DNA from: Candidatus Moraniibacteriota bacterium
Lineage (GTDB): Bacteria > Patescibacteriota > Minisyncoccia > Moranbacterales > UBA1568
DNA length: 64,000 nt
Assembly: GCA_037201605.1 (NCBI GenBank)
Contig: JBBCGM010000002.1
Span: 144,697 to 208,696 of the forward strand
Reading direction: 5' to 3'
Made by a program: the position numbers and the translations under genes. How positions within the stretch are numbered: the stretch's first letter is position 1; every line of letters begins with the position of its first letter. Shown piece after piece: positions 27,111-64,000 of this stretch. The notes beneath the pieces were generated by a model. That model did not search any database. It had not been told where the DNA came from and worked only from the letters and a program-made list of their open reading frames with translations.

Positions 27111-27144
27111 ACTGAGTATTAGTATCGGATGACCCAGATACGCG

Positions 27145-27169: not shown

Positions 27170-27212
27170 GGTGGTATCATAGAATCATTGAATTTTCCTT
27201 AGAAGCATAGCC

Positions 27213-29899: not shown

Positions 29900-29901
29900 A
29901 T

Positions 29902-48859: not shown

Positions 48860-51800
48860 TTAGGTAGGCTCTGCTACCACCGCCATTTCATCGATCCTGA
48901 GATTCGCGGAAATATGACTCCCCTGAAAAAAGATAGTGTCCGAAAGGCCGCTTGTTGAAGGTATCCATACATACCCGACCGCCGTCGGCGTTTCTTCTCC
49001 ATTCAAGAATACGCTTATGGTAGCGACGTTCGGATTCCCTAAATCCTGGTGGGTGATGAGCATGCGCAACTCACTGTAAGCTCCGTCCATCGCCGGAAAA
49101 CTCCCGACGCCAACGCCTGCGCCGCCGGCAGTAGTCAGGAACATGCTTCCAGCCGTAGAAATACCCATGCCCGACAATCCAATAACGTGCGCTTTAATGA
49201 CGATGTGATCGGCTGGGCTCGTGATGTTATCGACAATCAGGCCCCGGAGGCGAATATCGACATAGTCCGGATCCATGGTGGCAATCGTCATGGTATCGCG
49301 AGTATCCACGTACGGAAGATCACTGCCGAATGTCAGCTTGCCATCGACGACCGGCGGAGGCGTAACCGGTCCCTCGGTATAGTTCGTAAAATTATGCGTA
49401 ATGCTCCCGACTGGCGTTGCGCCCAGCTCGCCATCTTCAAAGTCATCCCGCATCAGATAGACAAGGTCTTCTTCAGGTTCCTGGATCTCAATAGTGCGAG
49501 TGATATCGGTATACTGGCCGAAGCCTCCAAACAAACGAAGGGTAACATCGTGGAAATTGTTTGCAGGAGTTGCATCATCATATTCAGCATCTGCGTCTCC
49601 AACAAAACGCACCGTCCAGCCAGTTGCCTCAAACGGATCACTGACCTCGAATATGTCTCCGCCGGCAATGATTTCGAGGAGAACTGGCATGGCTTCTTCA
49701 TCGGGATCAAGCGCCGAAATCGGGAGGACCAGTTTGGTGCCGCCCTGAACAGTCGGATTGGCTGCTGCCACAGGGGTGATAGCGGGCGGAAGCGCTTCGT
49801 TCTGCATAATGGCAACTGCGTCGTCCATAAATTCACCCTTAGCCTTCTCATCGGCCAGGGTTGCAATGTGAAGCGCATCAGGCTGGGTACCGACGACAGA
49901 GGCCTTTAGGTGGACGTAGGCAATTTTGTCGTAATTATTCTCATGAGCCAAAATATGAAGAGCTCGATTAGCCTCCCAACCTTTTGGCCAAGCCGCATTA
50001 TGGCTCGGCACATTGCTTGGAAACAAAAATATTGAATCCTCGAGCGGCTGCTGACTGGAGATAGTCAATCCCCGCATAAGGGCGTAGTGATCGCGCATGG
50101 CATCAAGCATCAGCTCGCCAGCATTGGCCGAACCGCCTAGGAGGTTGGTGTCGTTCTCCAGCGCCTCGCAGTGCACTACTTCGACGCGACATTCTCCGTC
50201 GCGGGCAGTGACGGCCGGGATGGCGTCCGTGAGAGTCGCTATGACCCCCGCGATGCCCGTGTCATCCGTAGCTTGCCAGAGAGAAAAGCCGTCGTCATAG
50301 AAGTGCGACCCGCCCCAGGCCATAGGCAGCGCCACGACCTTGCGTCCGGTGCGAGCTACGAAGGACAAACATTCAGCCTCGACGCAGGAGTAGTAATCAG
50401 CGGCAGCCACGCTTCCGCCGAGCCAGCTAAGAGGCCTCGTATCGCTGTTGAGACCAGGAGGCATCGACCAGGGACTTTCCGTTGCATGAGTGCCGGCAAG
50501 AATATACTGCGTGAAATCAGGATCGGTTGCGTTGTATGCGGAATCGCCGTTTCGCTCTACTCTCCCCTCGGCCCGGCTATCGCCCACTATAAGGAATAAA
50601 GCTGTAGCCGAAGCATTCTCGACCGTGATGGTAAACGGCGTATCGCGAGGACTGTTAGAGGCATCTGCATGCGTCTCACGGACAGTAATGTCATGACTCG
50701 ACGCGGTCTCGTAATCAAGCGAACCATCGACGACGACGTTGAGCCCATCAAGAGCAAAGAGTCCCCCAGCACTGTCCTGCATGGAAAGCGTTGATCCGCT
50801 GCTCTTTCCGGAGAGCGCTCCGACCACCGTTCCCTCCGTCGCATCCTCAGAAACGGTGCTCGCAGAAAGGGTTAGCGCTGCAAGCGTCACTTCACTTACA
50901 TTCGTCACCGTCACCGTAATGGTCTGATTGGTAGCATTGCTTGCCGTATCGGTGGCCGTCACTTGTACGACGTAGGTGTTGTTGGTATCGGCATCGGAGG
51001 GAGCTTCGTAGTTGCGGGTGCCGTTACTCTGCCAGCGCAGTGTTGCCCCGCTCAGTTCAAAGAGGGCTTGATCCGCTCCTCCGGTAATGGTCCAGGTGAC
51101 GGTTTCGTTGGCAGTCAGGCTCTTGGAGAGCTGGGCATTCTCCGCGACGCTTACGGTGTTGGAAGAGGTGATGGAAGGAGCAGTGTCATCCACATCCCCG
51201 ACCGTCACCACAACCGTCTGTACCACCTCGTCATCCGTGTCTTCATCCGTTGCTGTCACTTGTACGACGTAGGTGTTGTTGGTATCGGCATCGGAGGGAG
51301 CTTCGTAGTTCTTGGCACTCATGGTGAGGAGGCCGGTACTGGTGTTTAGGGTAAAGAGGGCTTGATCTGCTCCTCCGGTCTTGGCAAAGGAGACGTTCTC
51401 TCGGTTAGTGGTGATGGTAAGCGAGAAGGAAGCGCCTTCTGAGACGCTTTGGGTAGCGCTTGAGGTGATGAGGAACTCTTCGGGGATTTCCAGGCTGCCT
51501 GAGGCCAGGTAGTCGGCTGAGGTGCCTCCACTGTTCCCTCTCACTCTGAGGGAGACTTCTGACCACTGCTTGAGAGTCTTGAGGGAAGCGTCTGCCTGTT
51601 CTAAGGTAGCGCCGGAGGCTGGAGCAAGGGTCACTTGGCCTGTGCCTGCCTGGGTTACGGCGCAGGAGAAGCCTGCAGGCAGGTTGTTGGGCAGAGTGAG
51701 GGTAGTGCCTGAGCTATTCGTGAATTCCAGGAAGAGGCCGTTGTCTGTTGAAAGGAGGGTGTAGGTGGTAGCACTGACTACCTTGGGGGTAGCCGGAAAG

Positions 51801-51898
51801 AGGTTGCGGCCATCTGCATCGTGGGCAACTGCGAGGTATTCATTCAAGATGGAGCCCCAGGCGCCGCCATCGGCGCCTGGGGTGGGAAGGCGGGGCAT
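48860..51898 (-). CDS. 1012-aa multidomain fibre/adhesin-like protein (MPRLPTPGADGGAWG N-domain, two cadherin-like repeats, an SGNH-like region, a lectin/LamG-like C-terminus)
   Basis: Intact ORF. Its N-terminal ~135 aa are roughly 70% identical by eye to ORF 60951..61367. The repeats carry …NYEAPSDADTNNTYVVQVTATD twice. FLIVGDSRAEG is SGNH-like. Confidence 0.7.
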   Translation of the reverse strand: MPRLPTPGADGGAWGSILNEYLAVAHDADGRNLFPATPKVVSATTYTLLSTDNGLFLEFTNSSGTTLTLPNNLPAGFSCAVTQAGTGQVTLAPASGATLEQADASLKTLKQWSEVSLRVRGNSGGTSADYLASGSLEIPEEFLITSSATQSVSEGASFSLTITTNRENVSFAKTGGADQALFTLNTSTGLLTMSAKNYEAPSDADTNNTYVVQVTATDEDTDDEVVQTVVVTVGDVDDTAPSITSSNTVSVAENAQLSKSLTANETVTWTITGGADQALFELSGATLRWQSNGTRNYEAPSDADTNNTYVVQVTATDTASNATNQTITVTVTNVSEVTLAALTLSASTVSEDATEGTVVGALSGKSSGSTLSMQDSAGGLFALDGLNVVVDGSLDYETASSHDITVRETHADASNSPRDTPFTITVENASATALFLIVGDSRAEGRVERNGDSAYNATDPDFTQYILAGTHATESPWSMPPGLNSDTRPLSWLGGSVAAADYYSCVEAECLSFVARTGRKVVALPMAWGGSHFYDDGFSLWQATDDTGIAGVIATLTDAIPAVTARDGECRVEVVHCEALENDTNLLGGSANAGELMLDAMRDHYALMRGLTISSQQPLEDSIFLFPSNVPSHNAAWPKGWEANRALHILAHENNYDKIAYVHLKASVVGTQPDALHIATLADEKAKGEFMDDAVAIMQNEALPPAITPVAAANPTVQGGTKLVLPISALDPDEEAMPVLLEIIAGGDIFEVSDPFEATGWTVRFVGDADAEYDDATPANNFHDVTLRLFGGFGQYTDITRTIEIQEPEEDLVYLMRDDFEDGELGATPVGSITHNFTNYTEGPVTPPPVVDGKLTFGSDLPYVDTRDTMTIATMDPDYVDIRLRGLIVDNITSPADHIVIKAHVIGLSGMGISTAGSMFLTTAGGAGVGVGSFPAMDGAYSELRMLITHQDLGNPNVATISVFLNGEETPTAVGYVWIPSTSGLSDTIFFQGSHISANLRIDEMAVVAEPT

Positions 51899-52007: not shown

Positions 52008-53606
52008 TCAGCCTCTGAAAATGCCGCTTATAAAAGTTTGGACTCGATGGAAGACGCCTGCGAAGAAGTTATCATTCTCTCCAAGCGCTATGTCGTCATC
52101 CGGCGCATGAAGTTCTACGGAATGCTCGTGCGTACCGTCATTCCCACCCGGAATGGTGAAGTAGCGATCGAAACCCGCGATCGCAAAACTCCAGTGGAAT
52201 AATTGGGTGCCGGCACCAAGAATACCGGTTCCTTTGGAACCATCGCCGTACTGGTTATCACCGCAACCCTGCAGCTGGCCTTCCGGCAAATTCGGATCAG
52301 TGTTTTTAACACCCGTACAGTTGGCCTGCCAAATACGCATCATCTCCTGATTCCACGCCCCGAACCAGTCGGTATGCATGGTTTCGCCGCCACAGTAGCG
52401 GTTTGAAATCTGAAGACACGGGGAGGTTGCTTCCGAGTTCATGGCGAGGCTAGACATGCGATCAGAAGTGAGATAAAGCTGACTAATTTGACCGCCAGGG
52501 ACTGGCGCGCCCCCACTTGGCCGCGCTTCTCCGGGACCGTAGTCAATAATCCAGTGAAAGGTGATACCGAGAGGCGGTATCCGATACCAGTGAGCTGGGC
52601 AGTGAGCTCTTCCATCACTGGCAGAAACAGGATACACAACGTGCTGGCGTCCGTTCGGCGACCAAGCATTCACCCCATCCCAGCACTCGGGTCCGACGAG
52701 TTCCGCGATCAATTCTTCGCCCTCTCGGACATCGAGCGTCGGATTCCCATTCTCGTCTACCAGGTAGGGCTGCTTCCCATTTGGATCAGTATTGGGCGAA
52801 TGTTCCGTCAGACAATCTGCGTTGGTGCGCGGTGCCGTAGGCAAACAATACCACCCAGTAAAGCCATTGTAGTTATTATTGACATACCCACTATTCGAGT
52901 TTTCCAGGCAAATTGGCGATGGCAATTTTGTCTCTGTACCATTCATTCTCAGGATCGTGCGGATTGAAACCGGCTACATACCGCAGGCCGAATGGGATAC
53001 GGCTCATTTTCTCCGTTTGGTCGATTGGGGTCTGGATCTGATAATAGAGGGTGATATAGAAGGGTTTGAGGCCCAGAGTCCTTGCCGTCTCCAAGGGCAT
53101 CCTGCTCGGCAAGCACCGGCGCCCAATAGGGCAGTGTTATTGATGAGGTTACCGCCACAGGAGCTGCCGGCGTTACTCTCACGCAGCTGCGCATAGGTAC
53201 TGTCCGGCTGAAGATCCGTATTACCGAAGAGCCAGTGCTTGTGTTCAAAGCCAGCCTCGTCGAACGAGAGGATCGGATCGAAGTCAAAGGCCTTGCCAAA
53301 GGCGCAGGTGGTGCGGAATTTATCCGAAGTATCAGTAATAGGCGGTCCGGTAAGCGACTCGAAATAGCCTCCGTCTATCAATTGCTGGCGGGTGAGGCCC
53401 GTGTCATTCGGTTCCGGGCCCTCGTTCTCAGCATAATACGGCGCGCTACTCGGATCATTGGCCGAACCAACACCGTACACATCAGAGCGATCATCAGTGA
53501 ATTCGATATCTTGCTGCACGAAGGGTGGAACATCTGTCGGCTTTTGGTTGGCCAGAGCTGCCGCCGGAATGAGCAAGAAAATAATAATGAGAAGAATCTT
53601 TTTCAT
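52008..53606 (-). CDS. Secreted DUF1996-like protein, paralog a (frame breaks)
   Basis: Signal peptide MKKILLIIIFLLIPAAALA. Motifs KFRTTCAFG, FEHKHWLFGN, HWYRIPP and CGGETMHTDWFGAWN. Pieces 53004..53606, 52949..53299, 52891..53112 and 52008..52946. Confidence 0.6.
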
Positions 53607-53609
53607 ATT

Positions 53610-54987
53610 TTAAGCGCCCGGAGGATTGGTTTTATACGGGTGGTCGCTCGGCAGTTCTGACTGGATACCCGCTTCGTGGGCAATGATACCTTCGATAATC
53701 TGGCGGTATTCATCGGTCATTACAGCATCAGTAAGCCACAGGAGTTTACTAATCGTTATCTGGGAAGTTTCTCCATAGGGAGCATAGCCACCGATGTTTC
53801 CATTGCCCGCACGGCCAACGCTCGGCGGATTATATCCCCAGCCTACTGCTTCAGCACCGTTAGTATAAAATTTTCCACCCGCCATCACAAGGAGATACGT
53901 TTGACCAGTCTGGAGAATGACCTGTGAACCTGAAGCTGCGTTGGTATAAGTACCCCCCAGCTCCCGCCGTTTAGAGCCGCAAACATAGTAACATTATGCG
54001 AAGAAGAGATACCTGGATAGCCAGTACACCCGCCGTGGTCGGCATTTGCTTTCAAAGAGCCACAATGGCATGCTGAGCAGTATAATCTTGTGCGAGAGCA
54101 AAGGTGCCGTCGGTAGAACCAGCGAGACCGAAAGTGATTCCAGGAATGCCCCCAGGCCCGGACGTTTGCTCCCCATAGAGGAGAGCCGTCGGCCGTCGCC
54201 ACATCGGCGCTTGCGGACTTATCGTTCCACACGGTGACATTATTGCTTCCATCCTTTGTAAGGGTCGCGGCATCTTCCGCATCCCACCAACGAATATAGT
54301 CACTCTGGAAATCATCAAGAGTATAGGGCTCTATCGCAGGAATGAGATCATCTACGATGTTTGACCACGGAGAGGAATTACCATCCGGATCCTTCTCGCG
54401 GATACGGTAGTAGTAATGCGTGCCGGCAAAGAGCGTTTCCAAAATCTCAAAGTCCGCCCCGGTCGCGTATTCTTCCTCCAGAGTAACCTCGTTTTCCTCT
54501 TCCGCTAGATCCTCGCTATCAAAGTGTTGACAGTATCGCGCTGTAACACCACCGACCATGCTATATCCGGAGTACCTCCTTCGAAGAAGGATCCCTCTCC
54601 GGTTTGCATAAGGAAAGTAGGCGGATTAGCACCCGTCTCAGAGGTAAGCGTCAAAACAGGCGCCACCATTTGTAGTGTCGTCTCAGTCGCGATATTCGAC
54701 CACTCAGTAAGCGGGTTATCCTCGATATCCATCGGCTGGATCTCGATATCGTATTCGGTCTCCGGTACGAAGCCATGGATCACGTTATCCCAGGGGAGAT
54801 TGCCTGCCGGCGCTCCCCCGTTGACGCGATAACGATAGTAAACCGTGTCGGGCCAGGGAGTGAACGTAAGAAGCATGCTCCGGTGCGAATTGGCAGTAGC
54901 TACCAGGTCACTGATAAAACCCTCCTCTTCTTCAACAGGCGGGAGAGAAGCAGTAATACCGCGAAGGGCTGGAAGATTGAGGACCAT
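53610..54987 (-). CDS. Leaderless cassette partner P1 (MVLNLPALRGI…; FN3-like, YYYR/WSN module, LamG-like C-terminus; frame breaks)
   Basis: Collinear pieces 54505..54987, 53885..54559 and 53610..53888. TLTKDGSNNVTVWNDKSASADVA is a typical LamG-jellyroll lead-in. Confidence 0.55.
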
Positions 54988-55014
54988 AGAAAGGAGAGGG
55001 TTCTGTTTTTGTAA

Positions 55015-56446
55015 CTATATCAGACTTCTTGTGCTTTTTGGACGAAGTTTATTCAGTCCCGTGGGTATGGAGATTGAAGGGCCGACTAGCGAATGAGGGA
55101 GTGGGAAAAAGCGATTGTAGCCTTTATGGATCCAGTCTTGTCCGAAATCAATTTGATGAAGACGGGAACCGTCAGGCGCGGGTCCCTGGACTATACCCTT
55201 CTTGCCATCACCATATTGAGTATCATCGCATTCATGCGGATCACCAATGAGAGAACCGATCGTAATGCCATTACACTTATTCATCCAGGTGAGCATGATG
55301 CCCGGATTCTCTTCAGTCCCGTAATCCCAAGCGCCGAGCCAATCGGTATGGCCACACTGACCGTTATGGAACTGGGTAAAATCAGGCATACGGTCACACG
55401 AGAAATACCACTCTTTGTAATCGTCAGGACCCCCGTGTTGAAACCAGATATTGAGCTGGAAACTGGGAACCTCATACCAGCCATCGGGACAGACCGACTG
55501 ACCACTGCCGATATTGCGAACCAGTGCCCGCATATGGCCGCGACCGCCAGGACTGGTAAGATTCACTCCGTCCCAACACGGCGGACCGTTAAACTCTGCG
55601 CCAATTAATTCATTCTCCGGACACACGAGCGTCGGGGTACCGTCGTCATTTCTTAAATAGGGTTGGTTAGCATTGCCCGGGCTGACCGGGTGCGCATCGG
55701 GATCGAGAGAACCGTTCGTCCCCTGGCACTTCCAGCCGTTAAAACCCTGGCCGCCATAGACATGGTCACCGGGTATCTCATCCTGGTGACGATCATCATC
55801 GGGATCAAAGGGGTCAAAACCGAATACATAACTGAGGCCGCGCGGGATGCGCGTCATTTTTGGAGATGCATCATGAGTACCGATATTATAATAAACAATC
55901 ATGTACTCCGGCTTCACGACGCCCGGCTTGTCCCCCAGAGCATTATCCTTGATGACTGCTGGAAACCAATAGGCGCTCCGGTTCAGGATCCCGCCGGCGC
56001 ACGTGCTGCCGCCGGTCGTACGCAGGGTTTGGTAGGTACTGTCCTTATTCGTTCCGGTATTTCCGAAAAACATGTGGAGGTGCATGAAATCCGGATTGCC
56101 AGGGGGCTGTAATCGGGTCTTCATAGGCCACATGAGAGAGATTGCAGTGCGTGCGGAACTTGGCTTCGGTGCCTTCGTGAGGAAAAGATTCGGTCGTTTC
56201 CAACCAATCCTCTAAATCATATTCGCCGAAGTCAGTCGGGATGTCCTCCGGCTCATAGGCGAAAGCTGCCGGGGTGCCTCCCTGCGTATTCGAACCATCC
56301 CCAATGATGCCCGTCACATACGTTACCGGTTGCTGCACAAAAGCAGGCGGATCTTCCTGTCCGGAAGCTGTAGGGATAGCCAGCCGATCATAGGCCGCGC
56401 CGCCTACTCCCAAAAGAATGAGAAGGAAGAAGAAAAGTTTTTTCAT
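55015..56446 (-). CDS. Secreted DUF1996-like protein, paralog b (one frame break ~56100)
   Basis: Signal peptide MKKLFFFLLILLGVGGAA. Motifs KFRTHCNLSH, FMHLHMFFGN, SAYWFPA, GWYEVPS and CGHTDWLGAWD. Confidence 0.65.
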
Positions 56447-56492
56447 AAATCTATTTTAGAACTCATAGGGAAAGATAACCAATGCTTATCCA

Positions 56493-57771
56493 TTAAAAGG
56501 GAGAAAAGCCTGCGGGCGGGGTATGGGCAAAGGCAGTAGCCCCGAAGTTAACCGTCAGGACATCATTTTTGTCAGCAGCAACATGGGGATAATACTTATC
56601 AAGAGGCACGCTGATCCCGCCTTGTCCGGTGGCTGGATTCTGGGTACCGGAGCCAGACCAAGTACCATTTACCCCAAACCAGACTTTGCTCAAGGTCGTA
56701 TCGAATGCCACCATCAGGGTAGAATCAGCTCCCCACCATTGGCTCCCATATTCAATAGGGAGTGAGCTGTTGTAATAATAGTAGAAGCCATCATAGGTGC
56801 TAATGCCATTCGTGCTGTTGTAACCTGGAAAATTAAATCCCGAAATGAAAACAACAGACTCATTACAAACGCCTGCATAGCGATTGTCAATAAGGCCAGC
56901 TGAATAGACTTCGAAATAAAACTTGCCACTACTTCGATACTGCGTAGAGCGTGAGCCAGCCCAAGAATTAAGAGTAGGATGGGCCCGTAAGCGTCATATT
57001 GCCGTTACTTAAACTCGCAAAAGAGCTTTTCTGATCCGGATCCAGTGTTGCCGTAAATTGAGCGATATCAGAGCCGGTCGTGTCAGAAATGATGTTGGAC
57101 CAGTCAGAATACACGGCATTGGGATCAGCTGCCTCTCCGCGCCTCCAGCGATCACGGTAGTAATAGGTGGTCTCGACCGCGAGCTGGTTCATGATGCCAA
57201 ACGCGAGGCTTGCGGTTACGTATTCTTCGTTATCCAGCTGATTCTCTTCCTCCAAAAGACCGGTGGTAAACGTAACGTCTTCGGCGATCTGACGAATGAG
57301 ATAATAGCCGACTTCCGCAGTGTTATCGGGCTGGGTAACATCAATGGTAGTCGGATTGGCTCCAGGATCGGAAGTGAAGGAGAGGACCGGTGGCGTAATG
57401 GGCGATTCATTGGCATCGGTCACCGTAACGATAATGATTTGATCACGGACCGCCAAAGACGCATTGGTGGCACGCACCACCACCTTGTAGGCATTGTTGT
57501 CATCCGCATCTGCGGGATTCTCATGATCACGCACTCCGTTGGATGTCCAGCGAAGCGTCGAGCCAGAAAGCTCGAACTGCGCCACATCCGGCCCCCCGTT
57601 GAGCGACCAGGTGACCGCCTCATTGGCCGTAAGCGTATGGGCAAGCGTCGTATTCTCCGCCAAGGTTACGGCATTCAGGGAGGTGATGATCGGCAAATCT
57701 TCTCCGCCTCCACCGCTCTGAATGGAGAGAGAGGCAGGGATACCTCGGAAGGCTGGAAGGTTAAGTACCAT
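56493..57771 (-). CDS. Leaderless cassette partner P2 (MVLNLPAFRGI…; cadherin-like, YYYR/WSN module, SPRY-like C-terminus; frame breaks)
   Basis: Pieces 56968..57771, 56714..56929 and 56493..56714. The C-terminus …KVWFGVNGTWSG…LTVNFGATAFAHTPPAGFSPF is SPRY-like. Confidence 0.55.
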
Positions 57772-57927
57772 ACGAACTAAGCATCAATTGAGCGGCCCCT
57801 CGGCATCGACAGCAAAAAAGTGAGGCCCAAGAAAGGAAGAGTTAAAGAGAAAAACTTATGAATTTACTTCATTTTAGCAGATAAAAGTCGTTTTGAATTT
57901 GGCAACGTCTCTTTAGTCTCAGAGAGT

Positions 57928-59457
57928 CTAGTGATTGTGAACACTGTCCGGGCCCGTGTGACCTCCAGGAATCGCGTAGTAATCCCCTAATTCATCGCCT
58001 CGGTACCAATGGTTTAGATCAACCTGTGGCGTACGGGTGCCGTCTGGAGCGTTCCCGCCCACCAGTCTCGAGGTGAGCGACATACTATTGCTGTTACAGC
58101 CAGTCCCATGCGGCACTTCACCGCTTTCCGGATCAGCCGTATTGGGAATGCCTAAACAGAAACGGAAGCCTTCCTTCAGGATATCGTCCTGCCACGCTCC
58201 GAACCAGTCAAAGTGAAAGCTGCAGCCGTTCTTGCAGACAAAGTCCTCATAGCCCGGTATCGCCCGCATCGTGTCTTGGAACATGTCATCGGAGGATAGT
58301 CGCCAGCTCTTGAAATCGTCGTCCGTAAGATGCCCGAACTGCGGCTTGAGCACAAGCACCGGGAATTTGAACCACCCTACCGGGCACACATCAGTTCTGT
58401 CGACATTCGTGGCGCTTACCCTAATTGCTGGAAGCACATGGCCGTACCCCCCGGGAGAACTGAGGTTCTTGCCGTCCCAGCACTCAGCGCCATGACCCTC
58501 CGCTATAATTCTGCTTGCCGCGGGACATTCCAAGTCCTCAAGATTGTCGGCAGGAGTGCCGCCTGAGCTACAGCCCCACTCGACAAAACCGTCCCCTAGA
58601 TACGTATAAGCTCCTGAGGGGCCGCCGGCATCAGCGTTCGCCGCATTGGAAGCGGCTATGGCGTCTTTGAGACGGGTCTTGAGCGGATCATCCATGTCCC
58701 GGCCGGAAACATAGTTGAGGCCGCGCGGAAGATCAATAAAAGTATTGGCGTGGTTAAGGTCCGGTATCTGATAGTAGAGCGGGATCGCATCAACCTTTTT
58801 GGCCCGGATAACCCCGTCTCCGAGAGCATCCGGAACCAGAATGGCAGGCATCCAGTAGGCGGTGCCGTTAAGAGGCCCTCCGGGAGCAGTTGAGGCTACT
58901 TCCATATCGTTTTGCGCCTGCACGGCCGAATTACGCAGCTGTTCAAAGGTGGAGCAGGCACCCGCGTGGACATTCCCGAAGAATATATGAAGGTGCGAAG
59001 CGCCCCGGTCGCAATGATTACGAATCGGATCATCAGCTAAGATGTGACTATCATTGAGGGTCAGACGAAATTTGAACTCGTCGTCTCCGGTGGTATCTCC
59101 CCCCTCCGGGCTTCCATGGGCTCCGCGCGTGATCCAGCCTGTCTCGTCGGCTGGAATGGGATCAGGCTGCAAAGCATAGGCTTCCGGTATGCCGCCTGCG
59201 GGCGTCGATTCATCTCCAAGTTGTTCGTAGAAATTACCGTCCGGCCCGATGAGCGGGTACACGATGGGCTGTTCGCCGGCATCCCATTGGCCGGGAGTAA
59301 GTGAATATGCCGGCTCGTCATCGAGATCCAATTGATCCAGATTTTCAAAACCCGAAGTGATCGCTTGGCCCTCCCTGTTCCATCGGTCCAGCGCAAAACC
59401 GGCGACACCGAGCCCTGCCAATAACGCTACAAAGAGAATAAAGAAACGATTCATCAT
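57928..59457 (-). CDS. Secreted DUF1996-like protein, paralog c (intact)
   Basis: The ORF track starts it at 59493. The likely start is MMNRFFILFVALLAGLGVAG at 59457, overlapping the upstream stop as ATGA. Motifs KFRLTLNDSH, ASHLHIFFGN, TAYWMPA, GWFKFPV and CSFHFDWFGAWQ. Confidence 0.7.
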   Translation of the reverse strand: MMNRFFILFVALLAGLGVAGFALDRWNREGQAITSGFENLDQLDLDDEPAYSLTPGQWDAGEQPIVYPLIGPDGNFYEQLGDESTPAGGIPEAYALQPDPIPADETGWITRGAHGSPEGGDTTGDDEFKFRLTLNDSHILADDPIRNHCDRGASHLHIFFGNVHAGACSTFEQLRNSAVQAQNDMEVASTAPGGPLNGTAYWMPAILVPDALGDGVIRAKKVDAIPLYYQIPDLNHANTFIDLPRGLNYVSGRDMDDPLKTRLKDAIAASNAANADAGGPSGAYTYLGDGFVEWGCSSGGTPADNLEDLECPAASRIIAEGHGAECWDGKNLSSPGGYGHVLPAIRVSATNVDRTDVCPVGWFKFPVLVLKPQFGHLTDDDFKSWRLSSDDMFQDTMRAIPGYEDFVCKNGCSFHFDWFGAWQDDILKEGFRFCLGIPNTADPESGEVPHGTGCNSNSMSLTSRLVGGNAPDGTRTPQVDLNHWYRGDELGDYYAIPGGHTGPDSVHNH

Positions 59458-60719
59458 ACGGCAGATCCTGCAGGAGTAAATCCATCGGGGCAATTTGCAG
59501 CTACATCATCAAGGGCTTTGATAGTCACCGAGAAAGTTTGTGCTCCGTACAAAAGCGGTCTAAATAGCATTTTGAAGGCGGTGTGCGGAAGGGTTTTATA
59601 GCCAGTGCCGAGCGCAGGATTGCCAATATCCCAGCTTCCGTTTCTCCAAACATAGAACTTCGTGTCAGAAACCCCGATATCGAATGCAAAGCCTATGCTA
59701 TCACCATTATCCATAACGGGCGATATAGAGTCATACACATTGGCAATGTATAAATTACCGTAAGCAGCGATACCTGATGTTTCTTCCACATGTCCATACG
59801 AGTCGAAAGGTCCACTGATATCCCCTTCGTTATTGCCGTAATCAAGCGTGGCGACACCGAGCATAGAGGGACCTCCTGTCGTTATCGTGAGGCGCTCGAT
59901 TAAGAACTCTGTATAGATTTTACCACTCGTAAAGAGAGCATTGCTGCGTACCGAGACCGGAACGTCCGTCTCTGAGCACGTCGCTTTCTCATGGTGACTC
60001 CCCGTAATACTCATATTAGAAGACCAGCTTGAATAATCCATATTATTCCAGGCATATGTGATCCCAGGCGCGGCAATGGTGACCGTGAGAGTGTTTGACC
60101 AAGACGAATAGTCATTGATGTCTCCATAAAAACGACGGATCCTGGAGCGAATGTAATAAGGTGTATCAGGAGTTAAACCATCGTTGATCTCCCAATCTAT
60201 CGGCATTGGGCCGTCTCCACCCCACACAAGCTGCTGCTCTTCCTCGCGCAAATCACCACTATCAAAGGTGTTGACGGTATCAATCTGTGTCTGAATATAG
60301 TCAGCTTCTAAAACCGTATCATCGAACTCCAGATCCCACTCAGGAGGATCATCAGTACCACTTGTAAGCGTGAGGACTAAAGCATGAAGAGGCGGAAGTC
60401 CCTGAACCGCAACGCTCTCCGCCTCCCCTGACCCCTCTGCATTGGTTGCTGTTACCACGCAGGAGATCATGGCGTTGAAGTCATCCTCTGTCAGTACATA
60501 GGTATTCTCTGTCTCTCCGTCGATGTCTTCTCCGTCACGCTTCCACTGGTAGGTGTAGCTGGTAGGCGTGTTGGTCCAGGTGCCATTGGAGACGGAGAGG
60601 GTTTCTCCGACCAGAGGGGTGCCGGTGATGAGGGGGAGAGCGGTGTTTACGGGGAGTTCTCCCGAGGTGCTCTGAGCAGAGACGATGATGCCTCGAAAGG
60701 CCGGGAGGTTGAAAACCAT
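59454..60719 (-). CDS. Leaderless cassette partner P3 (MVFNLPAFRGI…; Ig-like, YYIR/WSN module, SPRY-like C-terminus), intact 421 aa
   Basis: TGTPLVGETLSVSNGTWTNTPTSYTYQWKRDGEDIDGETENTYVLTEDD is an Ig-like repeat signature. DSIGFAFD…KFYVWRNGSW…PDGFTP is SPRY-like. Confidence 0.7.
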   Translation of the reverse strand: MVFNLPAFRGIIVSAQSTSGELPVNTALPLITGTPLVGETLSVSNGTWTNTPTSYTYQWKRDGEDIDGETENTYVLTEDDFNAMISCVVTATNAEGSGEAESVAVQGLPPLHALVLTLTSGTDDPPEWDLEFDDTVLEADYIQTQIDTVNTFDSGDLREEEQQLVWGGDGPMPIDWEINDGLTPDTPYYIRSRIRRFYGDINDYSSWSNTLTVTIAAPGITYAWNNMDYSSWSSNMSITGSHHEKATCSETDVPVSVRSNALFTSGKIYTEFLIERLTITTGGPSMLGVATLDYGNNEGDISGPFDSYGHVEETSGIAAYGNLYIANVYDSISPVMDNGDSIGFAFDIGVSDTKFYVWRNGSWDIGNPALGTGYKTLPHTAFKMLFRPLLYGAQTFSVTIKALDDVAANCPDGFTPAGSAV

Positions 60720-60950
60720 ATAAAATAAAAGACGGAAAATTTGTCTTTATAATACTATATCAGACTCTTCTCTCTTGCCAGAGCTTATCCGGATCAACGG
60801 GAGAGAAATTGATGAGTCCTGCTAGCAAATTATGAGGAAAATAAGAAAAATAAAAAGGGCCATTACTAGCCCTTTCTTCTTACTATCCCTACATCTGCTA
60901 CAGAGCACCGGCGCAGATCGCAAGATCGAAAATACGGTGAGCGTCTTTAT

Positions 60951-61367
60951 TTATGCACCCATGTAGCCTGAGGCTACGTACTCAGCGGAGGTACCGCCAC
61001 TGTTGGTGCGCACGCGCAGCGTGATCTCGGCCCACTGTTTGGCTGTTTTGGTATAGCTATCGGCCTGACGCAGCGTCGCACCGCTCGCGGCAGACAGGGT
61101 CACTTGGCCCGCAGCGCACTGAGCGATGGCGCAGTTAAAGCCAATAGAAAAGTTATTCGGTAAGGTTACCGTACATCCGGAAGCATTGGTGAATTCCAAT
61201 ACTAAACCGGTATCGGTAGTGAGAAGCGTGTAGGTAGTGGCACTCACGGTTTTGACTGTAGCCGGGAAAAGGTTAAGACCATCCGCGTCATGGGAAACGG
61301 AAAGATACTCGTTTAAGACGGTGCCCCAAGCACCTCCATCACCGCCAACTGTCGGAAGTCGTGCCAT
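60951..61367 (-). CDS. Stand-alone MARLPTVGGDGGAWG N-domain protein (138 aa)
   Basis: Intact ORF, paralogous to the first ~135 aa of 48860..51898. Confidence 0.7.
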   Translation of the reverse strand: MARLPTVGGDGGAWGTVLNEYLSVSHDADGLNLFPATVKTVSATTYTLLTTDTGLVLEFTNASGCTVTLPNNFSIGFNCAIAQCAAGQVTLSAASGATLRQADSYTKTAKQWAEITLRVRTNSGGTSAEYVASGYMGA

Positions 61368-61385: not shown

Positions 61386-61598
61386 TTATGCACCGTACGC
61401 CCCACCCCCAAAGCTCTCCTCCGAGCGGGAGCTCGTGCGACGCGTTTTTGGCTGGACCGGATCCGGACTGGAAAGCGTTTTCAGAAGCGCCGGTATGCCA
61501 GAAAGCGCCAACAAAACCAGCCCCAAATGAAGGAGGAATTCCTTACGAGTAAGCGGCTTCACTAAAAGCTGGGCAAAGAGAGGTTTTTGACGTGACAT
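61386..61598 (-). CDS. Small protein with a Tat-signal-like N-terminus
   Basis: MSRQKPLFAQLLVKPLTRKEFLLHLGLVLLALSGIPA… has T-R-K-E-F-L followed by a hydrophobic h-region. It starts 15 nt after the tatC stop. Confidence 0.4.
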   Translation of the reverse strand: MSRQKPLFAQLLVKPLTRKEFLLHLGLVLLALSGIPALLKTLSSPDPVQPKTRRTSSRSEESFGGGAYGA

Positions 61599-61613
61599 AG
61601 TGATTTTGTTTCT

Positions 61614-62444
61614 TTATTTCGAAGATACCACAAAAGCTGGAGTCGTAAAAGCGCCATGTGAAAAACGGAGGGGCTGCAAGCGCTTTTTGCGATTGACCCG
61701 CCAGACCAGGAAAACCGATACTTCGTACAGAAGAATGAGCGGCACAGCCAGTCCCAGCATATTGAGCATGTCCGGCGTCGGCGTAATAACTGCCGCGGCT
61801 ATGGCAGCAATAAGGACGACCCATTTCTGCTGCCGGCGTAGAGATCCGGGGGCAAAGGCCTGGAAATGATTGAGGATGAGCAAAAAAAGCGGCATCTGGA
61901 ACGTTACTCCGAAACCAACGAAATAGGCCAACATGAAGGATATATACTCATTGGTCATGATAAGCGAGCGCACCTCTTCAGTGGCAAAGCCATTCAAAAA
62001 GCCAATGGCCATGGGCAAAGAGATGAAGTAAGCAAAGGAAACACCGAGTCCCATAAGAAGCACCGACGAAAGAAGTGACAAGACCAAAAACGAACGTGAA
62101 CGCTTCGGCACCAAGGGTTCCAAGAAACGGATACATTGATAGATAAGGACTGGCAAAGAAAAGAGAAAGCCGGCAAGTAAGCAGACCTTGATCAAGAAGT
62201 CGAAGCCGCCGCCGGGAGAAGAGTAGAAAAGGCTCTGATTGAGCGGGCGCGTTAACGCCGCAATAATGGGTTCATGAAAAGAGTAGGCAAGAACCGTTCC
62301 CACACCAAAACTCAGCACATACCAGCCAAAGCGGTTGCGCAACTCTAAAAGATGTGCCAGAAAAGGCCGTCGCTTTTCAAAGCGGGTCGTTGGATGACGC
62401 ATAACGGAATCCAACGAATACGCAGGGAAAATCATCATATTCAC
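61614..62444 (-). CDS. tatC: Twin-arginine translocase subunit TatC
   Basis: Intact 276 aa, six TM helices, with HLLELRNR… and …AAVITPTPDMLNM. Confidence 0.85.
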   Translation of the reverse strand: MNMMIFPAYSLDSVMRHPTTRFEKRRPFLAHLLELRNRFGWYVLSFGVGTVLAYSFHEPIIAALTRPLNQSLFYSSPGGGFDFLIKVCLLAGFLFSLPVLIYQCIRFLEPLVPKRSRSFLVLSLLSSVLLMGLGVSFAYFISLPMAIGFLNGFATEEVRSLIMTNEYISFMLAYFVGFGVTFQMPLFLLILNHFQAFAPGSLRRQQKWVVLIAAIAAAVITPTPDMLNMLGLAVPLILLYEVSVFLVWRVNRKKRLQPLRFSHGAFTTPAFVVSSK

Positions 62445-62509
62445 CGTACCGACTTTTTATTTTTGACCAAAAACAGGAAAATGCAACTTACACCTAAACA
62501 AACCCGGAC

Positions 62510-62695
62510 TTACATTTTCTGATCAGGAGCGGAAGAGCGGGAATCTTGCGGAGCATCATCGTTACCAAAGCCCTTCTTGATTTCACGCATGCCCTGTCCA
62601 ATGCTACGAGCCAGTTCGGGCAATTTTTTGCCGCCGAAGAGCAAGAGCACGATAACCAATATGAGTATAAGTTCCTGAACACCAAGACCAAACAT
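62510..62695 (-). CDS. tatA: Twin-arginine translocase subunit TatA/E
   Basis: MFGLGVQELILILVIVLLLFGGKKLPELARSIGQGMREIKKG. Confidence 0.85.
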   Translation of the reverse strand: MFGLGVQELILILVIVLLLFGGKKLPELARSIGQGMREIKKGFGNDDAPQDSRSSAPDQKM

Positions 62696-62756: not shown

Positions 62757-64000
62757 ATGTCCAGACACAGCTTGTTGCGAGGAAAGATTTCCGTTTTGTT
62801 CTTTTCTGGGCTTTTCTCAATCGCCCTTTTGTCTTGTTGGCCCTCTTTGGCTTCGGCCAACTATGGAGACGGTAACTACGGCGCCGGTACCTATGGTGAT
62901 ATCACGCCGCCCACGCTCGCCGAAGTGACACCCGTTCCTACTCCTGCCACTGATACCACTCCGAACTATACTTTCAGCTCAAGCGAGATTGGCACGATTG
63001 CCTACGGTGGGTCCTGTTCCTCGGCAACTACCTCTGCCACGGCCGGCAACAATACCATTACCTTCAACACCCTGGCCCTCGGAACATACACCAACTGTAC
63101 GATCACCGTAACCGATGCATCGGACAACGAAAGCGATACCCTGACCGTCACGGCATTTACGATATCGGCAAGCGATACCACCGCTCCGACACTTGCCCAG
63201 GTGACGCCTGTATCCACGCCCACTACCGATACCACTCCGAACTACACCTTTAGCTCAAATGAGCCGGGTACTATCCAGTACGGTGGGTCCTGTTCCTCGG
63301 CAACTACCTCTGCCACGGCCGGCAACAATACCATTACCTTCAACACCCTGGCCCTCGGAACATACACCAACTGTACGATCCGGGTTACGGATAGCTCGTC
63401 GAACCAAAGCTCTCCGCTTTCCGTCTCTTCTTTTACGATTGTCGCCGCTGACACAACCGCTCCGACGCTCGGAGAGGTAACTCCGGTCACTACGCCCACT
63501 ACCGATACGACACCGAGTTATACGTTCAGCTCAAACGAAGCCGGTACTATCCAATACGGCGGATCGTGTTCTTCGGGGACCACGAGCGCCAGTATCGGTA
63601 ACAATACCGTCACTTTTAACGCCCTCTCCGCAGGAACATACACCAACTGTACGATCCGGGTTACGGATAGCTCGTCGAACCAAAGCTCTCCGCTTTCCGT
63701 TTCTTCTTTTACGATCGTTGACGACGGTATCGGAGACGGGGGAGATGAAGAGGAAGATGAGGAGGAGGAAGCCATCGATTTTAGCCGCCCCAAGCTTGCC
63801 TGGCTCGATAAAATCTTCAAGCTCTATCACAACGCTTTCCCGCGCCTCAACAGTGAAGAATTCACCATCAAGGGTACGGACGAAGACCTGGCCGGCGGAC
63901 GCATCAACTTCACCCTTGGCGGACGCAAAGTAGGCCATGCCGACATCGAAGACAACGGTGACTGGAAGAAAAAGATTCACTCAACCAAGAGCGGCGAGCT
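62757..64000 (+). CDS. Secreted protein with three tandem 92-aa Ig-like repeats (3' partial; absent from the supplied ORF track)
   Basis: My own translation is open from ATG 62757 to the window end. It starts with a signal peptide (MSRHSLLRGKISVLFFSGLFSIALLSCWPSLASA), then 3 x [DTTAPTL..VTPV.TP.TDTTP.YTFSS.E.GTI.YGGSCSS.TTSA..GNNT.TFN.L..GTYTNCTI.VTD…], then an acidic linker. Confidence 0.8.
   Translation, partial: MSRHSLLRGKISVLFFSGLFSIALLSCWPSLASANYGDGNYGAGTYGDITPPTLAEVTPVPTPATDTTPNYTFSSSEIGTIAYGGSCSSATTSATAGNNTITFNTLALGTYTNCTITVTDASDNESDTLTVTAFTISASDTTAPTLAQVTPVSTPTTDTTPNYTFSSNEPGTIQYGGSCSSATTSATAGNNTITFNTLALGTYTNCTIRVTDSSSNQSSPLSVSSFTIVAADTTAPTLGEVTPVTTPTTDTTPSYTFSSNEAGTIQYGGSCSSGTTSASIGNNTVTFNALSAGTYTNCTIRVTDSSSNQSSPLSVSSFTIVDDGIGDGGDEEEDEEEEAIDFSRPKLAWLDKIFKLYHNAFPRLNSEEFTIKGTDEDLAGGRINFTLGGRKVGHADIEDNGDWKKKIHSTKSGE
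62898..63725 (+). repeat. 3 x 276-bp in-frame tandem repeat array
   Basis: The period is exactly 276 bp (units start at 62898, 63174 and 63450). 63003-63104 and 63279-63380 are 102/102 identical. R2 and R3 share a near-perfect block starting at 63357 and 63633. Confidence 0.9.

What the first reader, a model, noticed from the sequence alone, without database searches (positions are those of the whole stretch)
59454..60719. Conserved N-terminal motif MV(L/F)NLPA(L/F)RGI on three otherwise divergent proteins with no signal peptide
P1 starts MVLNLPALRGITASLP, P2 starts MVLNLPAFRGIPASLS and P3 starts MVFNLPAFRGIIVSAQS. Downstream domains (Ig-like, cadherin-like, FN3-like, SPRY/LamG) are typical of extracellular proteins, yet no Sec or Tat signal is present. 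Such a short, invariant extreme N-terminus suggests one of three roles: a non-classical export or sorting tag, a docking peptide for attachment to a common base structure (as on phage fibres), or a processing site.
Basis: seen in the sequence. Interest (0 to 1): 0.65.

Follow-up and report, generated by a model that had tools for sequence, protein, structure and literature searches.

The report
Shared N-terminal tag on phage-like fibres
Three neighbouring genes in a tiny (CPR) bacterium encode phage-tail-fibre-like proteins that all begin with the same 11 amino acids; this is most likely a plug that attaches different fibres to one common partner, as in some phages, and not a secretion signal.

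Summary
Three minus-strand ORFs start MV[LF]NLPA[LF]RGI, at window positions 54987, 57771 and 60719. In-frame stops lie 4-9 codons upstream with no alternative start, so these are true N-termini. Most motif codons differ synonymously between copies while the peptide stays fixed, so selection acts on the peptide.

The proteins are mosaic phage-type fibres: motif, short linker, Ig/cadherin/FN3 modules, then a beta-rich head. Their closest relatives sit in phage structural modules. Those relatives carry other short, family-specific N-terminal peptides at the same position. The second N-terminal class in the cluster (MARLPT...) is found on phage tailspike and minor tail proteins.

Each motif gene is followed by a DUF1996 gene with a signal peptide. 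The same two-gene module occurs in viral contigs.

The motif was found nowhere else: IMG/VR, GTDB species representatives, JGI metagenomes and INPHARED were all negative. It has no Sec or Tat features.

Best reading, inferred and not shown: a lineage-private docking peptide, like the 7-29-residue "conserved peptides" that attach secondary receptor-binding proteins in K1-5/SP6/KP32-type phages. No partner was identified and the locus has no virion genes. An export tag or a processing site remain less likely rivals.

Verdict: a new member of a known kind, of moderate interest.

The parts
60687..60719 (-). P3 motif codons 1-11 (MVFNLPAFRGI)
57739..57771 (-). P2 motif codons 1-11 (MVLNLPAFRGI)
54955..54987 (-). 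P1 motif codons 1-11 (MVLNLPALRGI)
59454..60719 (-). P3, 421 aa. Layout: motif plus linker (residues 1-20), Ig-like domain (23-110), FN3-like middle domain (~112-215), beta-rich head (~220-421) shared with phage fibres P0052 and P0024.
   Evidence: Nucleotides 60-307 are 100% identical to the MPRLPT fibres on another contig.
56493..57771 (-). P2, about 415 aa after correcting one frameshift near 56985. Layout: motif, linker with GGGG, cadherin-like domain, FN3-like domain, SPRY-like head.
53610..54987 (-). P1, about 460 aa spread over at least 3 reading frames. Layout: motif, acidic linker, FN3-like domain, second FN3-like domain, C-terminal beta-rich domain.
57928..59457 (-). DUF1996 protein D3. 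It has an N-terminal hydrophobic signal or anchor, and its start overlaps the end of P3.
55015..56446 (-). DUF1996 protein D2 (frameshift-split), with a Sec-type signal. It lies downstream of P2.
52008..53606 (-). DUF1996 protein D1 (split), with a Sec-type signal. It lies downstream of P1.
60951..61367 (-). MARLPT138: a stand-alone copy of the second N-terminal module (phage minor-tail-protein-like). It is the last gene of the tat operon and a candidate adapter.
   Evidence: The AF2 model was too poor to test the fold.
48860..51898 (-). MPRLPT1012: an anchor-type fibre with the MPRLPT N-domain, cadherin repeats and further C-terminal sequence with no family match.
60754..60781 (-). Promoter-like site (CTGGCA-16-TATAGT, preceded by TG) upstream of P3. 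The TGATATAGT element recurs upstream of P1 (55001-55026).
60852..60877 (-). Terminator-like hairpin (11-bp stem plus T run) between MARLPT138 and P3. It separates the tat operon from the fibre genes.
61386..62695 (-). tatA (62510-62695), tatC (61614-62444) and a 70-aa Tat-associated protein (61386-61598, contains TRKEFL), all directly upstream on the same strand.

Best explanation
MV[LF]NLPA[LF]RGI is the exposed, unstructured extreme N-terminus of three paralogous phage-type fibre proteins (receptor-binding-protein-like). A linker of about 10 residues follows, then interchangeable Ig, cadherin and FN3 stalk modules, then a beta-rich distal head.

It most likely acts as a docking (attachment) peptide. 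Each fibre would insert the same 11 residues into one binding site on a common partner. That partner could be an adapter, an anchor-type fibre or another particle or surface component. Fibres with different distal specificities could then be mounted on the same base.

This is how the 7-, 11- and 29-residue N-terminal 'conserved peptides' of secondary receptor-binding proteins are described in K1-5/K1E/SP6 and KP32/KP34-type phages. There they dock to the T4gp10-like branching domain of an adapter or primary RBP.

The MARLPT-type proteins at both ends of the cluster are the obvious candidates for the partner. MARLPT138 is a stand-alone copy of that N-domain, encoded immediately upstream.

Shown: true N-terminal position, purifying selection on the peptide, a phage-fibre-like modular architecture, absence of Sec and Tat features, and a module boundary right after the motif plus linker.

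Inferred: the docking function and the identity of the partner.
For: 1. N-terminal position and peptide-level selection.

2. In the AF2 model, residues 1-22 have no secondary structure and pLDDT of about 52. They precede a confident Ig domain. This fits a linear motif that becomes ordered only on binding.

3. The closest full-architecture homologues are phage proteins.
- P0052 and P0024 directly follow an SU10-type adaptor gene in contigs with SU10-type portal and capsid genes. In SU10 itself the fibre encoded after the adaptor binds it through its N-termini (PMC9509320).
- P0008 lies a few genes downstream of a portal-like gene (faint SU10_portal hit).
- P0105 lies in a siphophage head-to-tail module.
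- The P3 Ig domain matches PDB phage tail proteins.

4. Homologues of P1, P2 and P3 carry other short N-terminal peptides at the same place, before the linker and first domain. Examples are MxxGLGLxL, MIAGIVASQ, VNKNVLTFLRRR..., MAEYEDGIFSNLPQRRG... and MALPVWP.... Each peptide occurs on proteins with different downstream domains. Cellular actinobacterial relatives instead have genuine signal peptides.

5. P3 nucleotides 60-307 are 100% identical to the MPRLPT fibres on another contig of the same MAG. The motif and linker upstream are not shared. This is module swapping with the junction right after the tag, as in phage RBPs.

6. The other N-terminal class of the cluster is demonstrably phage-borne.
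- The first 30 residues of MARLPT138 are 87% identical to the N-terminus of a 538-aa protein in a siphophage-like viral contig. I read that protein as a beta-helix tailspike from its sequence only; no domain search was run on it.
- A related N-terminus sits on a protein that follows a 946-aa ORF and a 260-aa ORF. I read these two, from size and position only, as tape measure and distal tail protein.
- The MARLPT domain hits Gordonia phage minor tail proteins (PHROGs).

7. The [fibre -> signal-peptide DUF1996] gene pair is shared with viral contigs, including all the closest DUF1996 relatives.

8. Short N-terminal docking peptides are an established mechanism. Deleting the 29-aa peptide of KP32 RBP2 abolishes its incorporation. 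Hepta- and undecapeptides are described in K1E/K1-5/SP6. The peptide differs between phage groups (PMC13352976; PMC6872550).
Against: - No binding partner was identified. MARLPT138 could not be modelled (pLDDT 41), and complex prediction was not possible.
- The 64-kb window has no capsid, portal, terminase or baseplate genes. Its context is chromosomal: IF-2, UvrABC, tRNAs and tatAC.
- The motif is absent from 2.9 million viral contigs even with relaxed patterns, and from INPHARED. No phage is known to use it.
- The genes alternate with secreted DUF1996 proteins and lie next to a tat operon. This would also suit a cell-surface role.
- Similarity to the SU10-type fibre N-terminus (F-x-NLPxxR[GK]) is weak and post hoc. 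SU10 gp12 itself does not share it.
Confidence: 0.5

Rival explanations
1. Non-classical export or sorting tag. The 11-mer would target signal-less adhesin-like proteins to the cell surface of the CPR bacterium. One route would be hitch-hiking with, or recognition by, the adjacent Tat machinery or another transporter. Domesticated phage fibres would then serve as episymbiont adhesins.
For: - tatA, tatC and a Tat-associated small protein lie directly upstream on the same strand. MARLPT138 appears to be co-transcribed with them.
- The paired DUF1996 proteins are secreted, which suggests an extracellular function for the module.
- The locus is chromosomal and has no virion genes.
Against: - There is no twin-arginine motif, no hydrophobic core and no lipobox.
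- A strong terminator-like hairpin and a separate promoter-like site separate the tat operon from P3.
- Homologues with equivalent short N-terminal peptides are phage virion proteins, which are not exported.
- I know of no precedent for an 11-residue hydrophilic/amphipathic N-terminal export signal of this type (own knowledge).
- The tag sits on only three proteins in the 64-kb window and was absent from the two 22-kb stretches of another contig that I could read. The rest of the MAG was not scanned.
Confidence: 0.15
2. Partner- or assembly-specific tag. The peptide would bind a dedicated assembly factor or the cognate DUF1996 protein. Examples would be holding the fibre until it is released, or coupling fibre and enzyme, with no attachment to a structural base.
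For: - Each motif gene is immediately followed by a DUF1996 gene, and P3 overlaps D3.
- The same pairing and overlap occur in phage contig L013.
Against: - The DUF1996 paralogues are only 27-36% identical while the motif is invariant.
- They carry Sec-type signals, so they leave the cytoplasm unfolded.
- MPRLPT-type fibres lack the motif yet are also paired with DUF1996.
- Viral fibre-DUF1996 pairs lack the motif.
Confidence: 0.1
3. Processing site or propeptide. The conserved residues would be the recognition site of a protease that trims the N-terminus, in the way Prp removes the N-terminal LNLQFF|A extension of L27 and of phage 80alpha capsid proteins in Firmicutes. That comparison is from my own knowledge and was not checked here.
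For: - The motif is short, invariant and N-terminal.
- It bears a faint resemblance (LNLxxF) to the Prp site. This is from memory only.
Against: - No protease gene lies in the cluster.
- The resemblance is 4 residues.
- Nothing in the homologues suggests N-terminal maturation.
- This was not testable with the tools.
Confidence: 0.07
4. Artefact. Either the start codons are mis-called, or the motif is residual identity from a recent duplication or gene conversion with no function of its own.
For: - The genes form a tandem array.
- The assembly contains indel errors.
Against: - In-frame stops lie 4-9 codons upstream with no alternative start.
- Synonymous sites inside the motif are nearly saturated while the amino acids are fixed.
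- The flanking paralogous genes are only 27-36% identical.
Confidence: 0.02

Closest known systems
N-terminal 'conserved peptide' of secondary receptor-binding proteins in branched phage RBP systems: K1E/K1-5/SP6 hepta- and undecapeptides binding adapter gp37; KP32gp38, KP34, Menlow and PhiK64-1 groups (PMC6872550; PMC13352976)
   Same: - A very short (7-29 aa) conserved extreme N-terminus on several RBPs that are otherwise unrelated in their distal parts.
- The peptide is specific to one phage group.
- The RBP genes are clustered, together with an 'anchor'-type RBP carrying a larger N-terminal domain (here the MARLPT/MPRLPT proteins).
- Modules are swapped with junctions just after the N-terminal module.
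   Different: - There is no sequence similarity to any described peptide.
- No T4gp10-like branching domain or adapter could be recognised.
- The locus is in a CPR bacterial chromosome with no virion genes within 64 kb.
- The distal parts are Ig/cadherin/FN3 plus a lectin-like head, not depolymerase beta-helices.
- Each gene is paired with a secreted DUF1996 protein.
- Binding is not demonstrated.
Long tail fibre gp12 of Kuravirus SU10 and the metagenomic SU10-like fibres P0052 and P0024
   Same: - P0052 and P0024 share the Ig-Ig-head architecture of P3 (31% identity over 89% of P3).
- They occupy the gp12 position directly after the adaptor gene.
- SU10 gp12 attaches through its N-termini to the adaptor.
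- Their N-terminus contains F-x-NLPxxR[GK], reminiscent of FNLPAFRG.
   Different: - The N-terminal module of P0052 and P0024 is about 45 aa and is otherwise unrelated.
- SU10 gp12 starts MIVYNNQAPD..., with no similarity.
- No SU10-type adaptor, portal or capsid gene is present in the window.
Actinobacteriophage-type minor tail proteins with the M(A/P)RLPT...WG..LNEYL N-terminus and the associated ~100-aa domain
   Same: - They occur in the same cluster and share stalk and head modules with P1-P3.
- They are likewise signal-less.
- They have a possible common core M-x-x-x-L-P-[AT] (MTARLPTV in L098, MATRLPAT in P0033, MVLNLPAL in P1).
   Different: - The MARLPT module is 30-135 aa, is widespread in phages, and has its own fold.
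- The P motif is 11 aa and private to this genome.
- The shared LP[AT] core is only three fixed residues and may be chance.
Sec, Tat and lipoprotein signal peptides
   Same: N-terminal location on proteins built of 'extracellular-type' domains.
   Different: - There is no positively charged n-region followed by a hydrophobic h-region.
- There is no RR motif, no lipobox and no AxA cleavage site.
- The neighbouring DUF1996 proteins show what a real signal looks like in this genome.

Membership tests
Phage RBP N-terminal conserved docking peptide (anchor-branch RBP systems) | The same short peptide at the extreme N-terminus of two or more RBPs whose remaining sequence diverges | tested here: met
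   Three proteins share 9 of 11 invariant residues plus 2 L/F positions, and are unalignable from residue 12.
Phage RBP N-terminal conserved docking peptide (anchor-branch RBP systems) | The carriers are tail fibre or tailspike (virion appendage) proteins | tested here: inconclusive
   Homology to proteins in phage structural modules and to PDB phage tail proteins is clear. It is not known whether P1-P3 themselves are part of a particle.
Phage RBP N-terminal conserved docking peptide (anchor-branch RBP systems) | A partner with a T4gp10-like branching domain or adapter protein encoded with the RBPs | tested here: inconclusive
   The candidates are MARLPT138 and MPRLPT1012. MARLPT138 gave no PDB sequence match. 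The AF2 model has pLDDT 41, so no fold comparison was possible.
Phage RBP N-terminal conserved docking peptide (anchor-branch RBP systems) | Location in the structural gene module of a phage or prophage genome | tested here: not met
   No capsid, portal, terminase or baseplate genes occur in the 64-kb window, and the flanks are housekeeping genes. A prophage-like region exists elsewhere in the MAG, next to an MPRLPT fibre-DUF1996 pair.
Phage RBP N-terminal conserved docking peptide (anchor-branch RBP systems) | Physical binding of the peptide to the partner, and loss of incorporation when the peptide is deleted | not testable with these tools
Sec-type signal peptide | Basic n-region, hydrophobic h-region of 7-15 residues, c-region with a cleavage site | tested here: not met
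   The longest hydrophobic run is 3-4 residues and the maximum KD score is 1.1-1.6. The adjacent DUF1996 proteins have runs of 10-19 and KD 2.9-3.4.
Tat signal peptide | S/T-R-R-x-F-L-K motif followed by an h-region | tested here: not met
   P1-P3 and the MARLPT proteins have no RR or RK motif. Only the 70-aa Tat-associated protein has TRKEFL.
Prp-type N-terminal propeptide (L27 / phage 80alpha) | LNLQ[FH]F|A consensus plus a Prp cysteine protease in the genome | not tested
   The only resemblance is LNL..F, recalled from memory. The rest of the MAG could not be searched for Prp.

The most novel reading that the evidence does not exclude
The cluster is a set of domesticated phage fibres used by the CPR cell itself. 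The 11-mer, and perhaps the MARLPT N-terminus, would be a new kind of signal-peptide-independent tag. It would either export these proteins (possibly through the adjacent Tat-associated genes) or dock them non-covalently onto a cell-surface structure. The result would be an exchangeable panel of adhesins, each paired with its own secreted DUF1996 enzyme, for attachment to and attack on host cells.
Probability: 0.12. Interest if true: 0.8.

Novelty: new member of a known kind. Interest (0 to 1): 0.4.

Why it matters
If the docking reading is right, this locus is a compact example of "plug-and-play" receptor-binding proteins in, or acquired by, a Candidate Phyla Radiation bacterium, a group whose phages and surface biology are almost unknown. 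The 11-mer would be a handle for finding the base structure by pull-down or AF-Multimer, and for engineering fibre exchange.

The wider pattern may be more useful than this one motif. Across environmental phage fibre and decoration proteins, many different very short N-terminal peptides precede the same Ig/cadherin/FN3 modules. This suggests that short N-terminal docking peptides are a general design principle, well beyond the Klebsiella and coliphage systems in which they were described.

The conserved pairing of fibre genes with secreted DUF1996 proteins also gives a first genomic context for a large family of unknown function.

Tried and rejected
1. Exact back-translated motif scans gave no true instance.
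- IMG/VR: 0 hits.
- GTDB species representatives: 2 hits, both chance. One is internal to a spurious antisense ORF; the other reads ...ALSG in non-coding-like sequence.
- JGI metagenomes: 1 hit, internal to an AraC-type regulator.
- Two relaxed patterns in IMG/VR: 0 hits.
- tblastn of the first 32 residues against INPHARED: nothing.

2. Profile search of the 5.8-billion protein set with the aligned N-termini.
- The 44-aa alignment returned "no candidate" and did not even recover the query's own protein. I treat this as a tool limitation, not as negative evidence.

3. Full-length searches with P3, P2 and P1 found only module homologues. No other protein had the motif.

MARLPT138 alone modelled too poorly for a fold search.

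5. My guess that the C-terminus of the 872-aa fibre of prophage L011 is homologous to the MARLPT domain was not supported by BLASTP.

6. Extending the P0052-type N-terminus in IMG/VR found nothing. SU10 gp12 does not share it.

7. A search for att-like repeats linking the tRNA cluster to the far end of the fibre cluster found none.

8. A special translation-initiation explanation was rejected. Most genes here lack a Shine-Dalgarno sequence, so its absence upstream of P1-P3 is not distinctive.

9. A conserved RNA or DNA element inside the motif was rejected, because third codon positions vary freely.
Full report
**What is there**

The window comes from a Candidatus Moraniibacteriota (CPR) metagenome-assembled genome, GCA_037975565.1, contig JBBCBH010011046.1, 346 kb.

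A six-frame search finds NLPA[LF]RG exactly three times, each at the start of a minus-strand ORF:
- P1, 54505..54987: MVLNLPALRGI...
- P2, 56968..57771: MVLNLPAFRGI...
- P3, 59454..60719: MVFNLPAFRGI...

In-frame stop codons lie 9, 4 and 9 codons upstream, with no ATG, GTG or TTG in between. These are the real N-termini.

Within codons 2-11, every pair of genes differs synonymously at 5-7 codons. Only 1-2 codons differ by replacement, always L/F. From codon 12 onward the proteins cannot be aligned. The paralogous DUF1996 genes that accompany each copy are only 27-36% identical. The duplications are therefore old, and the 11 residues have been held constant by selection on the peptide. An RNA or DNA element, or residual identity from recent duplication, is ruled out.

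**Architecture**

P1 and P2 are interrupted by frameshifts. uvrB is also split into two ORFs. The P2 shift sits at a GGGCCC run. Long-read indel errors are therefore the likeliest cause. Reading through the shifts gives these layouts:
- P2 (~415 aa): motif, linker ending in GGGG, cadherin-like domain, FN3-like domain, SPRY-like head. The SPRY call is sub-threshold (Pfam E 0.014 over the whole model).
- P1 (~460 aa): motif, acidic linker, two FN3-like domains, beta-rich C-terminus.
- P3 (421 aa): motif and linker (1-20), Ig-like domain (23-110), FN3-like domain (~112-215), and a head shared with phage proteins.

The evidence for P3:
- The Ig-like domain has AF2 pLDDT >90 and matches PDB phage tail proteins 9c2d/9c3a at E 1.4e-5.
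- Foldseek gives tandem FN3/Ig matches.
- Residues 1-22 are modelled without secondary structure, at pLDDT about 52.

None of the three has a hydrophobic core, a twin-arginine motif or a lipobox. The adjacent DUF1996 proteins have textbook signals.

**Locus**

The gene order on the minus strand is:
1. tatA
2. tatC
3. a 70-aa Tat-associated protein (NF038009-like)
4. MARLPT138
5. a terminator-like hairpin at 60852-60877 and a promoter-like site with a TG-extended -10 at 60754-60781
6. P3, then DUF1996
7. P2, then DUF1996
8. P1, then DUF1996
9. MPRLPT1012
10. a tRNA cluster

The flanks are housekeeping genes: IF-2, UvrA/B, a DEAD-box helicase, ABC-F, and TopA, DprA and RelA beyond the window. 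GC content matches the core genome. There are no capsid, portal, terminase or baseplate genes in the window.

**Relatives**

Searches with P3, P2 and P1 retrieve only module homologues, and none carries the motif. The relatives are nevertheless informative.

The proteins that share most of the P3 architecture are phage proteins.
- P0052 and P0024 have 31% identity over 89% of P3. They sit directly after an SU10-type adaptor gene, in contigs with SU10-type portal and capsid genes. In SU10 the fibre encoded after the adaptor (gp12) is attached through its N-termini (PMC9509320; gene order).
- P0008 lies a few genes downstream of a portal-like gene (faint SU10_portal hit).
- P0105 lies in the interval from head morphogenesis genes to the tail terminator of a siphophage-like contig.

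Homologues that begin with the same first domain as P1, P2 or P3 carry, in exactly the place of the motif, other short peptides. Each recurs on proteins with different downstream domains:
- MxxGLGLxL (P0002, P0008, P0021, P0105, P0106, P0138, P0139 and others)
- MIAGIVASQ (P0092-95, P0104)
- VNKNVLTFLRRRVHPPRGGGG (P0086-88, P0096)
- MAEYEDGIFSNLPQRRGRAG (P0052, P0028, P0024)
- MALPVWPSTVPHV (P0010, P0013, P0032)

Cellular actinobacterial proteins with the same Ig domain have ordinary signal peptides instead (P0034-47). In this superfamily, "no signal peptide plus a short conserved N-terminus" is therefore the phage-appendage pattern.

**Module boundaries**

P3 nucleotides 60-307 (residues 21-102, the Ig domain) are 100% identical in DNA to the MPRLPT-type fibres on another contig of the same MAG. 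The preceding 59 nucleotides are not shared. Recombination has therefore exchanged the stalk module, with the junction immediately after motif plus linker. This is the behaviour expected of an N-terminal attachment module on a mosaic receptor-binding protein.

**The second N-terminal class**

MARLPT138, MPRLPT1012 and two further proteins of the MAG (P0018, P0029) share an N-terminal module.
- Its first 30 residues are 87% identical to the N-terminus of a 538-aa protein in an IMG/VR siphophage-like contig (L097, 8001-9617). I read that protein as a beta-helix tailspike from its sequence only; no domain search was run on it.
- A related N-terminus heads a protein in L098 that follows a 946-aa ORF and a 260-aa ORF. 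I read these two, from size and position only, as tape measure and distal tail protein.
- The ~100-aa domain that follows matches minor tail proteins of 79 Gordonia phage records and several PHROG tail families.

One of the two N-terminal classes in the cluster is therefore demonstrably a phage tail-protein N-terminus.

One MPRLPT fibre-DUF1996 pair lies next to a prophage-like region in the same MAG, with a tail protein, an M23 peptidase, a DNA polymerase exonuclease and an integrase.

**The DUF1996 partner**

Relatives of the DUF1996 genes occur in at least 113 IMG/VR stretches, usually with a signal or lipoprotein signal. In all the closest ones the upstream gene is a homologue of the fibre set (9 of 55 distinct neighbours overall).
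- In L013 the fibre has the same middle and head domains as P0018, and its end overlaps the DUF1996 start, as P3 and D3 do here.
- In L093 a beta-helix protein precedes DUF1996.

The repeated unit of the window is thus a phage-type two-gene module. The literature I could search has nothing on DUF1996 in phages.

**Distribution of the motif**

All scans for the motif elsewhere were negative:
- Exact back-translated scans found no true instance in IMG/VR, in 185,579 GTDB species representatives, or in JGI metagenome contigs. The three hits were chance.
- Two relaxed patterns gave nothing in IMG/VR.
- INPHARED gave nothing.
- The two other stretches of the same MAG that I could read have no further copy.

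The alignment-based search of the large protein set failed technically and is not counted. Within what could be searched, the motif is private to this locus.

**Interpretation**

The best-supported mechanism is a docking peptide. An exposed 11-residue N-terminal tag would attach fibres with different distal domains to one site on a common partner.

This mechanism is established for phage receptor-binding proteins.
- Secondary RBPs of K1E/K1-5/SP6 carry conserved hepta- or undecapeptides that bind the adapter gp37.
- KP34-type phages use MALxxLV.
- Deleting the 29-residue peptide of KP32 gp38 abolishes its incorporation into virions.
- The peptide differs between phage groups (PMC6872550; PMC13352976).

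The cluster even mirrors the "anchor plus conserved-peptide RBPs" layout. MARLPT-type proteins with a larger N-terminal domain flank three peptide-type proteins. MARLPT138, a stand-alone N-domain encoded just upstream of P3, is the obvious candidate adapter.

Several points are not shown:
- any interaction
- the identity of the partner
- whether the base is a virion, a phage-derived particle or a cell-surface structure

The absence of virion genes in the window, and of the motif from all viral collections, counts against a simple "prophage tail fibre" reading. I put the docking explanation at about 0.5.

**Rivals**

- Export or sorting tag (0.15). This is suggested only by the neighbouring tat genes and the secreted partners. 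It is contradicted by the lack of any signal features, by the terminator and promoter between the tat operon and P3, and by the phage homologues.
- A tag for DUF1996 or for an assembly factor (0.10). This is weakened because DUF1996 paralogues diverge while the motif does not, and because motif-less fibres are paired with DUF1996 too.
- Processing site (0.07). Untestable here.
- Artefact (0.02). Refuted by the stop codons and the codon analysis.

**Verdict**

The feature is a new, apparently lineage-private member of a known kind of element, sitting in an unusual host and genomic context. The mechanism is inferred by analogy, not shown.

Noticed in passing
window 52008-59493; loci L013 (3969-7245), L093 (11910-14472), L011 (10001-13416): A gene for a signal-peptide-bearing DUF1996 protein lies immediately downstream of, and often overlaps, a fibre or spike gene. 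This holds in the CPR genome and in viral contigs. At least 113 IMG/VR stretches encode DUF1996 relatives, and all the closest ones have a fibre-set homologue upstream. No paper in the searchable library links DUF1996 to phages. A secreted enzyme or receptor-modifying partner of the fibre is one idea, untested.
   Followed up: partly
window 15737-15868 (VR), 16216-16345 (TR), 17259-17759 (RT fragment): Probable diversity-generating retroelement. Two ~130-nt repeats differ by about eleven substitutions, each at a position where the second copy has an adenine, plus one single-base indel. A reverse-transcriptase fragment (phrog_1423, E 1e-47) lies downstream. Tail-fibre-like ORFs lie at 19249-20171.
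   Followed up: partly
window 16000-30000; repeats 17793-17855 and 26997-27059: A low-GC island (0.38-0.46, against about 0.55 in the flanks) of short ORFs. Two 63-nt direct repeats (84% identical) lie 9.2 kb apart, the first right after the RT ORF. This may be a mobile element or duplicated retroelement ends.
   Followed up: no
window 59454-60719 nt 60-307 of P3; L011 10708-10955; L012 11005-11185: The Ig-domain module of P3 is 100% identical in DNA to two MPRLPT-type fibres on another contig. The first 654-995 nt of MPRLPT1012 are also 99.5-100% identical to those fibres. This indicates very recent module exchange between fibre genes, or assembly cross-talk.
   Followed up: partly
L097 8001-9617; L098 7995-8963; window 60951-61367 and 48860-51898: The N-terminus MARLPTVGGD.G.WGTVLNEYL is 87% identical between the CPR protein and a 538-aa protein in a siphophage-like viral contig; I read that protein as a beta-helix tailspike from its sequence only. 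A related N-terminus sits on a protein after a 946-aa and a 260-aa ORF, which look like tape measure and distal tail protein. This is a second, widespread portable N-terminal module. A possible shared core M-x-x-x-L-P-[AT] with the MVLNLPA motif is speculative.
   Followed up: partly
proteins P0002, P0008, P0021, P0086-88, P0092-96, P0104-106, P0138, P0139; L048 4325-5692: Several other families of very short N-terminal peptides directly precede Ig, cadherin or FN3 modules in environmental phage proteins: MxxGLGLxL, MIAGIVASQ and VNKNVLTFLRRRVHPPRGGGG. Their partners are unknown. One (P0105) is encoded between head genes and the tail terminator, which suggests a capsid or neck decoration.
   Followed up: partly
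window 40444-42496, 38566-40038, 52008-56446: Housekeeping genes are fragmented: uvrB is in two ORFs and uvrA is truncated. Two of the three DUF1996 genes, and P1 and P2, are fragmented too. The assembly probably carries homopolymer indel errors, so pseudogene calls here are unsafe.
   Followed up: partly
window 61386-61598 (-): A 70-aa protein after tatC matches the NCBIfam 'Tat system-associated protein' NF038009 over its full length but below the cut-off (E 9e-10). It has a TRKEFL motif and a hydrophobic segment. MARLPT138 starts 19 nt after its stop, so a phage-minor-tail-like gene appears to be part of the tat operon.
   Followed up: no
window 62757-63998 (+), runs off the window end: A 625-aa protein (per the NCBI gene call) with a signal peptide and near-identical ~100-aa tandem repeats (Big/TcfC/SpaA-like hits). 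It is transcribed divergently from tatA.
   Followed up: no
L011 1-9470 (contig JBBCBH010010996.1 of the same MAG): A prophage-like region with a tail protein, a DNA polymerase exonuclease, an M23 peptidase (endolysin-like) and an integrase. It is immediately followed by an MPRLPT fibre-DUF1996 pair. Its upstream part, which might hold capsid or adaptor genes, could not be fetched.
   Followed up: partly
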